A DNA stretch of 64,000 nucleotides from an uncultured virus (IMG/VR IMGVR_UViG_2061766007_000712) (lineage: Duplodnaviria > Heunggongvirae > Uroviricota > Caudoviricetes), in IMG/VR virus record IMGVR_UViG_2061766007_000712. One strand, 5' to 3'. Both the position numbers and the translations under genes were made by a program. Below are positions 7,306 through 47,093 of this stretch, one piece after another (the stretch's first letter is position 1; the number at the start of each line of letters is the position of its first letter). Under the pieces are notes generated by a model that saw nothing but the letters and a program-made list of their open reading frames with translations, searched no databases and was not told the origin of the DNA.

Positions 7306-9486
7306 TTAGTTTTCTTTACTCTTTTCGTATAATTTTCTAAGTGAAATTATGTCTTTTTTTAGTGTTTCTTCATCTTGCTCTTTTAACCAAGCATAGAAAT
7401 AATTGCTTTCGGCATTGTATAAAGTCGATAGTTTGACTTTTCTTTTACCTAAAACTTGGTCTTTTAATGCTCTCATAAATTTCCAAAACTTATAATATGG
7501 GAATTTAAGTTTAGTCATAAAGCCATCACATTCTATTACAACACCTTCAATATCTTCCTTAGAATTAATATCTTCTTCATCAGTATTTTCTAAATACCAT
7601 TTATGGAATTTTCTAATATCATCAAACTCACAATATATAGTCTTACATTCACAGTTAAATAATTTTGCAAGTTCACATAACTCCTCATAAGATTTTCTTC
7701 TAAATTCAAAATCATTGTCAATAATATCTAGTAATACTAATTTGGAATTATCATATTCAATAATATGTGGGTCATTTTCAATATCAATAACCTCAAATAC
7801 CATCGAAACATTATTTTCTTTTAGATATTTCTCTACAATTTCTTTGTTGATGTTGCTGTTTTCGTAAATGTTTTTGAAATAATCAGCAAATTCACCTTGA
7901 TTTGTAGATTTACTTGCTATGAATAATTTATCATTTACCCAAGACATTATTCCTAAGAAACCATTTTCTTTTTTATAACAAGTAATATGTTTATCCTTGA
8001 ACTTGACAAGTAGATGTTCTAGTTCACTACTCTTAACTTCATTAACATTGAAGAACTTTTCGTAACCTCTTGCTACTACTTTTTTTGTTTCAGTATTAAC
8101 AAATAGACCTCTTGCTTTGCAAGTTAATTCATCCCACTTTTTACCATAAAATGCTCTATGTGTGAAATTAAACGAACTTATATCTTCTCCAAGTTGATTT
8201 TCTTTAATATATTGGTTATCTCTTAATTGTTTAACAATGTCGATGTTGTTATTTTTAACTGAACTACATTCTCTAAACTCATCAGCCTCTTCTTGTGCCA
8301 CAAATACATCGTTTTTTACTGCAATCATAATTGGTTTATCGCCTTTTTCAAGTCTTAATACTTTTAAATATCCACCAAACTCAACTTTGCCTTCAAGATT
8401 ATAAGACTTCTCAGCAACACCATTTATTTCAAATGTATTTCTATGTCCGTGTACTTGGATAATATCATTATCAATTTCGTTTTTAGCAAATACTTCATCG
8501 ATATTAACATTATAATCTCCTACACCATTTATTAATTGTTCAGTTGCAACAAGTTGTAATTCTTTAGGCATCATATTAATTCCACCGTGCGAAACAATAT
8601 ACTTTTTACCATCGAATGTAAAATATGCCATTTGACCTAATCTTCTATATAAATCTCTAAATAATTGTTTATCTAAATCTAATATTTCATAGATTGTTTT
8701 GTGCATAAACATTTTAGATTTAATCATTTCAACTTCATCATTTGCATAATAGTTAAACCATTTTTCGTGATTTCCTTCTAGCATTAATACATTTTTCTTA
8801 TCGTAAATAGTATTTAGGAATAAAGCAACTTCTTTGTTTTGTATTCCTCTATCAAAATAATCTCCTGTAAAAATGTAAAAGTCATCTTCACTATATGGCT
8901 CGTTATCAAAATACTCTTTAAGTGGCTCGTAGCATCCGTGAATATCGCCAAAGATATGTATTCTATTGTATTTATTCATATCAAATAGTTTTACACCAAC
9001 TTCATCCCAAAAGTTGTTTTTATCTACTTCTACCCAACCACTTGTTTTGCCTTGTGTTGCAAGTCTTGAATACATTTTATCGATAACACTTTCAGGAACT
9101 CTTTTATAATCTTCCCTTAAAGCATTTCTCCTTTTACACTCTTCAATAGGAACATCAGCAAAACTTACATAATATCTTCTATATCTATATCTTTCACATA
9201 ATTTATTATATCTACTAAAATCACTTGAACGAGAGTGAGTTGCATCTACGATAACGAACTCACCTCTTTTCATTCTTTCTTCAAGTAATTCAAATAGTAA
9301 TTGCCATACATAACTATCGTTACCTTGACTTATTATTCTATGAGTATGTTCAGCCGATAATATAGGGCTTTGAACAAGTAATCTTATATCATCAGCACTT
9401 AAACAATAATCTTTTAAACTCATTTCTTTAATCCAAGTAGATTTTCCACTCGCTGGGCTACCTCTAAGAATTATTAGACTTCTCAT
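7306..9486 (-). CDS. Polynucleotide kinase + metallophosphoesterase + RNA ligase fusion (RNA repair enzyme)
   Basis: P-loop GSPASGKS and DAT; GDIHG, GDYFDRG, GNHE and HGH; ligase motifs KENG, FE, EGVV, K.K. Confidence 0.88.
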   Translation of the reverse strand: MRSLIILRGSPASGKSTWIKEMSLKDYCLSADDIRLLVQSPILSAEHTHRIISQGNDSYVWQLLFELLEERMKRGEFVIVDATHSRSSDFSRYNKLCERYRYRRYYVSFADVPIEECKRRNALREDYKRVPESVIDKMYSRLATQGKTSGWVEVDKNNFWDEVGVKLFDMNKYNRIHIFGDIHGCYEPLKEYFDNEPYSEDDFYIFTGDYFDRGIQNKEVALFLNTIYDKKNVLMLEGNHEKWFNYYANDEVEMIKSKMFMHKTIYEILDLDKQLFRDLYRRLGQMAYFTFDGKKYIVSHGGINMMPKELQLVATEQLINGVGDYNVNIDEVFAKNEIDNDIIQVHGHRNTFEINGVAEKSYNLEGKVEFGGYLKVLRLEKGDKPIMIAVKNDVFVAQEEADEFRECSSVKNNNIDIVKQLRDNQYIKENQLGEDISSFNFTHRAFYGKKWDELTCKARGLFVNTETKKVVARGYEKFFNVNEVKSSELEHLLVKFKDKHITCYKKENGFLGIMSWVNDKLFIASKSTNQGEFADYFKNIYENSNINKEIVEKYLKENNVSMVFEVIDIENDPHIIEYDNSKLVLLDIIDNDFEFRRKSYEELCELAKLFNCECKTIYCEFDDIRKFHKWYLENTDEEDINSKEDIEGVVIECDGFMTKLKFPYYKFWKFMRALKDQVLGKRKVKLSTLYNAESNYFYAWLKEQDEETLKKDIISLRKLYEKSKEN

Positions 9487-34614: not shown

Positions 34615-34689
34615 TGGCTGAGCCGACTTGGAATTGCACCAAGACCAACAATTTTGGAGATTGTTGTGCTACTATTACACTATCGACCA
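34615..34689 (-). tRNA. tRNA-Trp(CCA), atypical
   Basis: Cloverleaf: D stem GTGT/GCAC, anticodon arm ACAAT-CTCCAAA-ATTGT, T arm CTTGG-TGCAATT-CCAAG, G discriminator, encoded CCA; one bulged base in acceptor stem. Confidence 0.8.
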
Positions 34690-34701
34690 ATGTTAAGAGC
34701 A

Positions 34702-44995: not shown

Positions 44996-45027
44996 AAAAA
45001 AATAAAGAGCATATAAAAATGCTCTTC
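44996..45027 (-). terminator. Terminator of the non-coding unit
   Basis: AAGAGCAT-TTTTAT-ATGCTCTT-TATTTTTT. Confidence 0.75.
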
Positions 45028-45050
45028 GAATAGGAATGAAAAAAACATAT

Positions 45051-45124
45051 TTTACTAGCACTACACCGATAGGAAGGTAAAGGACACACCCTCTTATCAG
45101 TGTACTACCAGCAAAGGTAGTACG
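45051..45124 (-). ncRNA. Structured RNA repeat unit 1 (possibly skipping-rope-like)
   Basis: TTTGCTGG-TAG-[stem, short insert, stem]-GTG-CTAGTAAA. Confidence 0.65.
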
Positions 45125-45265
45125 AAAGTATTGGACTTACATCCTAGTAAAGAATATTCAGGGGTTAGATGTTTTTAGGCATCTAAAAATGAATAATGAA
45201 TAGTGCCGATAACATAAGGGTACTTGCACCTCTTTTCGCCTTTCCCCTATATTATGAAGGTTATA

Positions 45266-45389
45266 TTATAAGCACTGTACTAATGATATAAAGGTTATTT
45301 TGCATACCTCATTAAGAATACCAACCTTTTTCATCTTAATGCCTATTGTACTTTTATATATCATCAGTACACTACCTATAAAAGTAGTG
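45266..45389 (-). ncRNA. Structured RNA repeat unit 2
   Basis: TTATAGG-TAG-TGTACTGATGATATA...TATATCATTAGTACA-GTG-CTTATAA. Confidence 0.7.
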
Positions 45390-45610
45390 GCTAATTGTGT
45401 CGCTATCCCAAGACACTATTGGGTGATTTTGTTTGACATATTAGCAATGCCCACATTCAAAAATCATAAAAGTATCCTTTTTATGGATAAAGGTTCATCC
45501 ACTGTTCCCATCACAGTTGATACCTTACATTTAATTGGGTAATTACTCCCAACATAGTAAGGAATTTAAGTGCTTTCTAAAATCTTAATTCCATACAGGA
45601 TATTAAGCCC

Positions 45611-45785
45611 ATTCATAAGCACCATTTAGTAGATATAATAAATACTATGTTGAGCCTCTTCATCACCGAGTAGGAGATAACTCCAACTCAGGCAGGGGTT
45701 GAACCTGCGATTATTTATCTTTTTACCTTACTGTATAAGGTTCTATCTATTATATCTACTCAATGCTACCTATAAAAGATAGCAC
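45611..45785 (-). ncRNA. Structured RNA repeat unit 3
   Basis: TTTATAGG-TAG-CATTGAGTAGATATAATA...TATTATATCTACTAAATG-GTG-CTTATGAA. Confidence 0.7.
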
Positions 45786-45833
45786 GACGTTTTATGAATA
45801 ATGAATTAGTAATGCTTTTGGCATTACATTAAA

Positions 45834-45862
45834 ATTATATCATTTTTATTTTTGATTTGCAA
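45834..45862 (-). promoter_or_regulatory. SigmaA promoter driving the non-coding unit
   Basis: TTGCAA-17-TATAAT with TG extension, overlapping the end of the minor capsid gene. Confidence 0.7.
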
Positions 45863-47093
45863 CTCTACGATAATCGCTTACTCTTAATCTTTGCATTTTG
45901 GTTGGCAAACCACTTTCTTCTGATAATCTTTTATACTTTTTAGATAATTTCATTATATTTTTTTGTGCATTAGCTACCAATTCTTTATTTCCACTTGTTC
46001 TAGCAAGTATTTGAATGTCCTTTTGTTCTCTAATAGCACGTTCTAATTTTCTTTGATATTGTGTGCCTTCATAATTGGTGTAATGTCTATAATCTTTTAT
46101 TCTTTCATCATAGAAATAAAAACCTTCATCATTCTTGATTCTTATTTCATTTAATTCACTATCAGTGTATTCTGGTTCACTTACACCAAGAATAATACTG
46201 AATATGTAGTGATAACAATTCATTTCACTAATAGGACGATAACCATTTTTATGGTCATGATCTAATGTGTAAGTGTTCCCTTTATAATCTTTTGCTTCTT
46301 CTCCCCTATTTAATTTATCGAATTCTTCTAAACTAAATTGTCTCCCCTGTACTTCTTCATGGTCGACAGCAGGGTTTTCGTGAACTGATATTTCATAACC
46401 ATCAGCACCAAATTCGGCACCGATTATTTTTTGATTCTCATTGTGTAATTCTCTTAATCTTCCTTTTAAGTGCATTCTTACTGCTGAATCAAGTCTTATT
46501 GACTTGCCACTCTCATATTCAATGGTTTTTAGTCCACTTCCACCTATTTCTTTCATAATACTTGTCATAGCACTATCAAATGTGTCTTTTCCCTGTCCTA
46601 CATTTAAAAGTGCTTCATCAAGAACTCTATTGTATGTTTCTCTTAAACCATAGAATTGTGTTTTTCCATTTAGGTCTTTCAGAGTGTAACCAATGACATT
46701 TGACCTAGTGAAATTATACATTTCATTCTTCACTATGTTAGATAGTGCCATAGTTTGCATTTTTAAGGCACTATTTTGCTCGAAAGGAACAAAGGGTATA
46801 TTTCTATACTCATAAAACTTTTTGTAGAAAATTTGGTCTTTTTTTGCATAATTATAGAATATCTCATCAATATCAGCAATGTTTAGTTTTGTGTAATATG
46901 AAATTTCATTTAAAATTTCTTCATAACTACCACCATATTTTAGAATTTGAACCAATTTTTGTGCTTGTGATGGTGTTAAGTCTCTTACTTTCTTAATAGA
47001 AGAACCTATCTTCATAAGAAAATAGGTGTTTGTTTGTTCAATTCTTCTAATAAGTCTTTCTACTAATAATTCAGCAGTCTTTTCATCTATCAT
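45846..47093 (-). CDS. Phage minor capsid protein (minor capsid 2-like), phage B
   Basis: EISVH....DH...QG, NC.H, QR.LER.IR..K; follows portal. Confidence 0.85.
   Translation of the reverse strand: MIDEKTAELLVERLIRRIEQTNTYFLMKIGSSIKKVRDLTPSQAQKLVQILKYGGSYEEILNEISYYTKLNIADIDEIFYNYAKKDQIFYKKFYEYRNIPFVPFEQNSALKMQTMALSNIVKNEMYNFTRSNVIGYTLKDLNGKTQFYGLRETYNRVLDEALLNVGQGKDTFDSAMTSIMKEIGGSGLKTIEYESGKSIRLDSAVRMHLKGRLRELHNENQKIIGAEFGADGYEISVHENPAVDHEEVQGRQFSLEEFDKLNRGEEAKDYKGNTYTLDHDHKNGYRPISEMNCYHYIFSIILGVSEPEYTDSELNEIRIKNDEGFYFYDERIKDYRHYTNYEGTQYQRKLERAIREQKDIQILARTSGNKELVANAQKNIMKLSKKYKRLSEESGLPTKMQRLRVSDYRRVANQK

What the first reader, a model, noticed from the sequence alone, without database searches (positions are those of the whole stretch)
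44996..45862. ~820-nt non-coding transcription unit with three copies of one RNA scaffold carrying different inserts
Seen: a consensus promoter and a terminator bracket DNA with no credible ORF. On the minus strand three units share one architecture: outer stem, invariant UAG/GUG internal loop, long inner stem, variable insert (roughly 17, 60 and 105 nt). The pairing covaries: outer stems are UUUGCUGG/CUAGUAAA, UUAUAGG/CUUAUAA and UUUAUAGG/CUUAUGAA, and the inner stems differ in sequence but still pair. Each unit also has a 5' extension (GUACUACC, CACUAC, GUGCUAUC) that can form a mutually exclusive hairpin with the GGUAG region, so it is switch-like. From memory the shape resembles the phage-associated skipping-rope motif, whose function is unknown. 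Inference: a constant handle with exchangeable cargo, i.e. an array of processed decoy, guide or antisense RNAs. No partner protein is identified.
Basis: partly seen in the sequence, partly recalled or inferred. Interest (0 to 1): 0.82.

Follow-up and report, generated by a model that had tools for sequence, protein, structure and literature searches.

The report
Self-capping RNase III cassettes in phages
This gene-free stretch of a gut-type bacterial virus holds three copies of a reusable RNA stem that the host's double-strand RNA cutter most likely snips, releasing a set of small folded RNAs with protected ends; related viruses use the same stem for many different RNA cargoes.

Summary
The three units are real and belong to a family absent from Rfam: 329 distinct copies in 204 of the fetched phage and prophage loci, mainly from uncultured gut Bacilli and Clostridia. 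Each is a 24-bp covarying helix with one G·G mismatch around a swappable insert. It is not skipping-rope, and the 'internal loop' is not invariant. Three measures point to one RNase III double cut, after arm position +6. The flanking hairpins P1 and P3 end with a 2-nt stagger, the helix spans 11+2+11 bp around that site, and the published E. coli matrix picks that register in 288 of 329 copies. After cutting, the flanks are predicted to refold into end-flush hairpins. The 830-nt unit would give seven small RNAs, including a circularly permuted, YrlA-like tRNA mimic without Ro60. In relatives the cassette encloses tRNA-like RNAs or a whole ORF, and abuts ROOL RNA. No transcription or cleavage data exist, and cargo function is inferred only. 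Earlier scan notes report the same theme (processing stems with swapped cargo) on other phage DNA; no sequence look-alike was found.

The parts
45846..47093 (-). Phage minor capsid protein gene upstream; its 3' end overlaps the promoter (context, not part of the RNA)
   Evidence: PF06152, E 1.3e-46
45834..45862 (-). Sigma-70-type promoter, extended -10; start of transcription inferred near 45827
   Evidence: strong promoters upstream of 32 of 135 family arrays against 0.4% of shuffles
45763..45827 (-). Predicted product 1 (leader): 5' hairpin 45827-45809, ends flush in P1 45785-45763
   Evidence: fold of the predicted product, coordinates
45613..45775 (-). Cassette 1 (arm type A): helix arms 45775-45752 and 45636-45613, G·G at 45766/45622; predicted cuts 45763|45762 and 45624|45623
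45624..45762 (-). Cargo 1 (139 nt): circularly permuted tRNA-like module, V hairpin 45741-45725, T arm 45708-45692, closed acceptor-like stem 45691-45666, D arm 45663-45647
   Evidence: same architecture in L080 and L024; the D-arm fold costs 2.3 kcal/mol over the minimum-energy fold
45369..45623 (-). Spacer product 1 (255 nt): starts flush in long-loop P3 (45623 with 45575-45569), holds a conserved multi-hairpin RNA (about 45560-45390), ends in P1 45389-45370
   Evidence: homologs L008, L198, L231, L346; 15 of 54 consensus pairs with double changes in 3 sequences
45266..45381 (-). Cassette 2 (arm type B), G·G at 45372/45275; predicted cuts 45369|45368 and 45277|45276; cargo 2 is 92 nt, 95% identical in L134 and L192
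45102..45276 (-). Spacer product 2 (175 nt): flush 5' stem with 45207-45202, several hairpins, ends flush in P1 45123-45102; no full-length homolog among the fetched loci
45052..45114 (-). Cassette 3 (divergent arms), G·G at 45105/45061; predicted cuts 45102|45101 and 45063|45062; cargo 3 is a plain 39-nt hairpin; no P3
44996..45027 (-). Intrinsic terminator
   Evidence: terminators downstream of 71 of 135 arrays against about 2 in shuffles and 9 on the opposite strand

Best explanation
The region is a phage small-RNA operon punctuated by three portable RNase III processing cassettes. Shown by comparison: the two arms form a strand-specific 24-bp helix with a G·G mismatch, and hairpins P1 and P3 compete with it. 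Inferred: P1 forms first during transcription, then the helix wins once the 3' arm is made. Inferred: host RNase III cuts both strands, after arm position +6 and before position -1, leaving 2-nt 3' overhangs. The insert is released, closed by about 10 bp. The weakened outer duplex falls apart because P1 and P3 refold, so the upstream product ends in a hairpin and the downstream product starts in one, shielding both from exonucleases. One transcript yields seven RNAs here. What these RNAs do is the weakest step. The commonest recognisable theme is a tRNA-elbow mimic that cannot decode, so I put about 0.35 on decoys or ligands for host tRNA-binding enzymes such as defence nucleases.
For: Covariation: 94.1% of cells paired, 20 of 23 pairs with double changes, 0 of 500 shuffles as high, slid controls 32-50%. 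G·U against A·C in the inner stem is 183 to 6 in 160 units. P1 pairs the 5' arm through +6 and falls to background at +7 (0.81 to 0.29); P3 pairs the 3' arm from -1 and is background at -2 (0.80 to 0.47); the same holds in 43 non-redundant units. Partition-function folding with no register assumed gives the same edges in 82 units: 0.72 to 0.34 and 0.52 to 0.81. Position -1 is the partner of +4, so the stagger is 2 nt. Pairing is at least 95% from -6 to +17, which is 11+2+11 around that site, the 24-position duplex of PMC6212723. With that paper's Table S4 register +6 scores best in 288 of 329 copies, median -21.7, and in all three window units. In that table G·G occurs within the 12 core positions only at C and C', and C' is where ours falls. 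Helix probability before the cut has median 0.94; after it the flanks separate, median 0.0, in 83 units. RNase III is present in 3 of 3 host genomes tested. ROOL begins a few bases after P3 in 3 loci and ends at P1 in 2. Three Rfam tRNA hits inside units start at +12, +12 and +14.
Against: No transcript, end-mapping or cleavage data. The matrix is from E. coli. Much of its score reflects simply having a 24-bp stem: 54% of pair-permuted helices also pass the paper's threshold, only 105 of 329 copies beat their own permutations at p<0.05, and only 14 do so when G·G is held fixed. Scoring the 12 core positions alone prefers registers +11 or +13 in most copies. The finder demanded long inner and outer pairing, so pairing from about -4 to +15 is partly built in; only the edges are free. 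P3 was found in 270 of 329 copies and is missing in window unit 3. Copies are related by descent. Only 24 of 329 inserts carry a T arm, so most cargoes are unexplained.
Confidence: 0.78

Rival explanations
1. The cassette's main job is to split and stabilise late mRNA, for example giving scaffold and capsid mRNA a protected 5' end, and the inserts are passengers.
For: Copies sit mostly just before the small terminase or between minor capsid and scaffold genes, usually co-oriented with them. The smallest released inserts are 28-35 nt plain hairpins.
Against: In the window the array has its own promoter and terminator. 73 of 135 arrays have two or more units and 71 end in a terminator. Cargo and spacer RNAs are conserved with covariation.
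Confidence: 0.1
2. The helix binds RNase III without useful cleavage and titrates it, for example away from type II CRISPR RNA maturation or toxin-mRNA silencing.
For: The helix matches RNase III preferences and occurs in several copies per transcript. Non-catalytic binding by RNase III is known (PMC3867540).
Against: P1 and P3 edges are conserved exactly at the predicted cuts, which implies selection on the products. A sponge would not need diverse conserved cargo.
Confidence: 0.04
3. A different double-strand nuclease (Mini-III or a phage enzyme) does the cutting.
For: The 2-nt stagger is common to the whole RNase III family. One host genome has a weak 127-aa hit of Mini-III size.
Against: 0 of 329 copies have the WSSW motif at the predicted site (motif from the passage). 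No phage nuclease tracks with the element.
Confidence: 0.04
4. The arms are single-stranded DNA recombination or transposition sites (attC-like or GTAG-type REP-like) that move the inserts.
For: Variable insert in a constant hairpin, a GTAG tetramer, patchy presence (11 of 24 minor-capsid relatives) and cargo swapped between arm types.
Against: Same-strand promoters and terminators. RNase III geometry. GTAG is not invariant. One to five copies per array. No integrase or Y1 transposase among the 75 commonest neighbour clusters. Swapping could arise from ordinary recombination between conserved arms (inference).
Confidence: 0.04

Closest known systems
RNase III processing stems of Firmicute stable RNAs (pre-16S/23S stalks, scRNA precursor) and of phage transcripts (T7 early mRNA, SP82)
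   Same: A long leader-trailer helix encloses an RNA that is freed by a staggered double cut (PMC4838370 passages; PMC3867540 passages). The host pre-23S stalk shares a short UAGAUA/UAUCU stretch with the inner stem.
   Different: A portable, repeated module with about 200 different inserts. It has built-in alternative hairpins at both new ends, whereas T7-type single cuts leave a 3' hairpin only. It has a fixed G·G.
Intervening sequences (IVS) of bacterial 23S rRNA
   Same: An RNase III-excised stem with variable cargo, sometimes an ORF (PMC4990558 abstract); compare L265, L287 and L299 with an 84-aa ORF inside the arms.
   Different: Lies in phage intergenic RNA, not rRNA. The excised IVS is degraded, while here the cargo is conserved and both flanks appear capped.
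Bacterial Y RNA YrlA
   Same: Cargo 1 has the V-T-acceptor-D permuted tRNA order on a long terminal stem (PMC4201824 passages).
   Different: No GNCGAA(N)G Ro60 motif, no TROVE gene and no Rfam match. It is only 3 of 329 cargoes.
skipping-rope RNA motif
   Same: Firmicute-phage type of setting (recalled, not from a call) and a 3' terminator (PMC5737381 passages).
   Different: No model match, no DUF3800-type neighbour, and a variable insert.

Membership tests
RNase III double-cleavage substrate | Helix of about 22-24 bp around the cut | tested here: met
   At least 95% paired from -6 to +17 in 329 copies; the inner part of this span is partly built into the finder
RNase III double-cleavage substrate | Two cuts with a 2-nt 3' overhang | tested here: inconclusive
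   Inferred from the P1/P3 edges; no ends were measured
RNase III double-cleavage substrate | Position-specific pair preferences (A-U/U-A at D and D', matrix score) | tested here: met
   A-U at D' in 317 of 329, A-U/U-A at D in 264 of 329; best register in 288 of 329; modest excess over permuted pairs
RNase III double-cleavage substrate | Cleavage depends on rnc in vivo or on the enzyme in vitro | not testable with these tools
   Needs experiment
skipping-rope RNA | Match to the Rfam model | tested here: not met
   No hit at gathering score in the window, at E up to 10 in the region, or in 60 related loci
skipping-rope RNA | Nearby DUF3800-related gene | tested here: not met
   None among 80 window ORFs or 75 neighbour clusters; the paper's supplement could not be read
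YrlA Y RNA (cargo 1) | Permuted tRNA module, T before D with a closed acceptor stem | tested here: met
   3 of 329 copies against 0.02 expected in shuffles
YrlA Y RNA (cargo 1) | GNCGAA(N)G Ro60-binding motif | tested here: not met
   Absent from the region
YrlA Y RNA (cargo 1) | Adjacent Ro60/TROVE gene | tested here: not met
   None in the window or in 5 incomplete host-type genomes; L080 has a DUF2828/DUF7788 gene nearby that the window lacks
Mini-III substrate | WSSW at the cut | tested here: not met
   0 of 329 at the predicted register
attC / GTAG-REP DNA elements | Cognate integrase or HUH transposase, one gene per cassette or high copy number (features recalled) | tested here: not met
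   a phage integrase lies 38 kb away in the window with no link shown

The most novel reading that the evidence does not exclude
Gut and rumen phages of reduced-genome Firmicutes run a plug-and-play small-RNA factory. One standard self-capping RNase III cassette lets any RNA be shuffled into a late transcript and released with protected ends. The repertoire (tRNA-elbow mimics in normal and permuted order, ROOL, about 200 unknown folds) is a diversifying arsenal of RNA decoys against host defence, an RNA counterpart of anti-defence gene islands.
Probability: 0.3. Interest if true: 0.88.

Novelty: new variant of a known kind. Interest (0 to 1): 0.72.

Why it matters
It gives a precise, testable maturation mechanism and exact predicted ends for a large set of uncatalogued phage RNAs (206 cargo clusters among 317 inserts). 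It suggests how ROOL RNA, whose function is an open question, gets a defined and protected end in these phages. A roughly 75-nt module that cuts a transcript and caps both new ends would be a new design among RNase III sites and a possible tool for making several stable RNAs from one promoter in Gram-positive bacteria. The permuted tRNA mimic without Ro60 extends Y-RNA-like architecture to a new setting.

Tried and rejected
Rfam: no family matches the cassette. blastn against 50,697 GenBank phages: only chance hits of 27-32 bases. No whole genome is held for the window. No RNA holder was listed for the region; this is no evidence on expression. Kissing loops between P1 and P3 were considered and dropped, because P1 often extends through those bases. 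Arms enclosing more than 340 nt: none found among unassigned 5' arms. Further homologs of cargo 1: one contig only in the viral and metagenome scans. Host chromosomal copies: 14 of 121 genomes of the host family have a hit. The strong hits have mostly phage-like neighbours by blastp and inspection, and the 3 weakest genomes look spurious. The 16S search in host genomes gave no answer; a stalk was read from the 23S locus instead. I could not place the RNase III cut in that stalk from text, so the shared bases are only a resemblance. The L080 DUF2828 protein gave no PDB sequence match and an unusable single-sequence model (pLDDT 35), so no fold search was run. Systematic antisense or guide target searches were not done. 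Rows dropped: 6 non-G·G hits of 335; 3 units over 230 nt; loci under 2.5 kb. 31 of 120, 9 of 116 and 13 of 47 pattern loci held no unit by the general finder; three of the 13 (L280, L288, L300) had shown a unit or both arms, so the finder misses some.

Full report
Observation. The region 45845-44954 lies on the minus strand between a phage minor capsid gene (PF06152) and a 96-aa ORF followed by two glycosyltransferases. A scan for GUAG...GUGC with flanking pairing finds three hits in the whole window, all here. None of 5000 shuffles of the region gave more than one. The region folds far better than its shuffles (z -9.9). Rfam has no match and GenBank phages have no homolog.

Family. Of 24 viral loci found through the minor capsid protein, 11 carry the element, 8 of them downstream of that gene. 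A general finder gave 335 distinct copies, 329 with G·G at the centre, in 204 loci. Record titles of the genome hits with units are mostly uncultured Bacilli or 'Tenericutes' and Clostridia MAGs from gut and rumen, in prophage-like surroundings. A covariance model hits 14 of 121 genomes of one host family, so this is not a core host gene. Copies sit mainly before the small terminase or after the minor capsid gene, often near tRNA genes, with no dedicated partner among the 75 commonest neighbour clusters. Of 135 arrays, 73 have two to five units, 32 have a strong upstream promoter (0.4% in shuffles, 4 on the opposite strand) and 71 have a downstream terminator (about 2 in shuffles, 9 opposite).

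Structure. Number the first G of GUAG as 0. The arms pair from -6 to +17 in at least 95% of copies, except the G·G at +3; pairing falls to 68% at -7 and 43% at +19. On 43 diverse copies, 20 of 23 pairs show double changes and both controls are far lower. G·U outnumbers A·C 183 to 6, so the structure is strand-specific. A 5' extension forms hairpin P1 with the 5' arm, and a 3' extension forms P3 with the 3' arm; both exceed shuffled controls. The full helix is favoured over these alternatives by a median 3.8 kcal/mol, in 143 of 160 units.

Mechanism. P1 covers the 5' arm through +6 and stops. P3 covers the 3' arm from -1, the partner of +4, and stops. Folding with no register assumed gives the same two steps. 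That is the 2-nt 3' overhang of an RNase III double cut. The conserved helix is centred on the same site, 11 bp each side plus the 2 bp between cuts, as in the 24-position duplex of PMC6212723. Scoring 17 registers with that paper's Table S4 picks +6 in 288 of 329 copies and in all three window units. G·G falls at C', one of only two core positions where that table records G·G. PMC11780869 reports similar preferences for B. subtilis and duplexes closing up to 505 nt. Against: pair-permuted helices pass the paper's threshold 54% of the time, the median gain is 3.5 log units and about half of it comes from the G·G, and core-only scoring prefers +11 or +13. After an in-silico cut the flanks separate (median pair probability 0.94 before, 0.0 after; 14 of 83 stay paired). 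In the window the leader and spacer 2 end flush in P1, spacer 1 ends one base short of flush, and both spacers start in flush stems. Protection by terminal hairpins follows from general knowledge of RNase J1 and 3' exonucleases (review passages) and is inferred here. RNase III is present in 3 of 3 host-type genomes. The window's own host is unknown.

Cargo. Released inserts run from 28 to 200 nt, median 94, among 324 copies up to 230 nt. Three loci enclose an 84-aa ORF with a purine-rich leader. 317 inserts fall into 206 clusters, and 16 of 62 multi-member clusters occur with both arm types. T-loop words are the most enriched k-mers (GTTCG in 20 clusters against 5.2 expected). Still, only 24 of 329 inserts have a T arm (0.15 in shuffles), 3 of them in T-before-D order. 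Normal-order ones use the top of the inner stem as acceptor stem, carry enlarged anticodon regions and have no encoded CCA. Window cargo 1 is the permuted type, V-T-acceptor-D, the order described for YrlA, with relatives in L080 and L024. It lacks the Ro60 motif and gene. Spacer 1 is itself a conserved multi-hairpin RNA that ends at a P1 in the window, L198, L231 and L346. ROOL was found in 6 of 40 loci scanned, half of them chosen for long gaps. It abuts P3 in three and P1 in two.

Function of the products. Not shown. tRNA-elbow mimics that cannot decode would suit decoys for tRNA-binding host proteins, and the window also encodes a kinase-phosphatase-RNA ligase fusion 36 kb away, but nothing ties them together. 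I give the decoy reading about 0.35.

Comparison and novelty. It works like the RNase III stems of rRNA and scRNA precursors, T7 early mRNA and rRNA intervening sequences. It differs in being a portable repeated module with conserved refolding caps at both new ends and hundreds of cargoes. Ten literature searches turned up no description of it; subscription papers and the Weinberg 2017 supplement were not visible and may bear on this. Earlier scan notes describe the same theme in freshwater and soil phages. They were seen after my reading was formed, were not checked, and sequence look-ups found no related note.

Papers seen: PMC6212723 (passages, section 27, supplement part 1 with Table S4), PMC11780869 (passages, section 24), PMC5737381, PMC4838370, PMC5389636, PMC4201824, PMC7509114 and PMC3867540 (passages), PMC4990558 (abstract and outline). 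attC, REP and the phage link of skipping-rope are recalled.

Verdict. Real, RNA-level, an undescribed family and a new variant of a known kind. Processing mechanism about 0.78; interest 0.72.

Noticed in passing
window 50331-45846 and 39529-32883: Two terminase/portal modules in series; the first has no capsid or tail genes after it. This could be two phages joined in one scaffold (the window has 30 N runs) or tandem prophages.
   Followed up: no
window 7306-9486 (-): 726-aa fusion of polynucleotide kinase, phosphoesterase and T4 Rnl1-type RNA ligase, an RNA repair enzyme, next to an integrase.
   Followed up: partly
window 34615-34690 (-): tRNA-Trp(CCA) between portal and the next gene, with a G in place of the usual second U of the T loop.
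   Followed up: no
L082 2654-3246, L193 2625-3209, L283, L221, L270, L038: ROOL RNAs next to cassettes; their closing stems begin with a UCUUUGA stretch like the host rRNA processing stalk.
   Followed up: partly
L062 2679-2769, L082, L099, L135, L145, L198: A cargo family of tRNA-like RNAs with intact D and T arms and a conserved GCGUACGC hairpin inserted in the anticodon arm.
   Followed up: partly
L080 645-2039, L223, L096: DUF2828/DUF7788 protein (Atlas clusters named 'RNA-binding protein') two ORFs upstream of the array that holds the permuted tRNA cargo in L080; a possible Ro60-like partner, absent from the window.
   Followed up: partly
L265 286-537 (-), L287, L299: An 84-aa ORF with no Pfam or NCBIfam match, enclosed whole inside one cassette.
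   Followed up: partly
window 45368-45277 and 25 other copies: A cargo class in which AAAGGU pairs with ACCUUU, leaving a one-sided variable loop of 10-25 nt that could display a single-stranded sequence.
   Followed up: no
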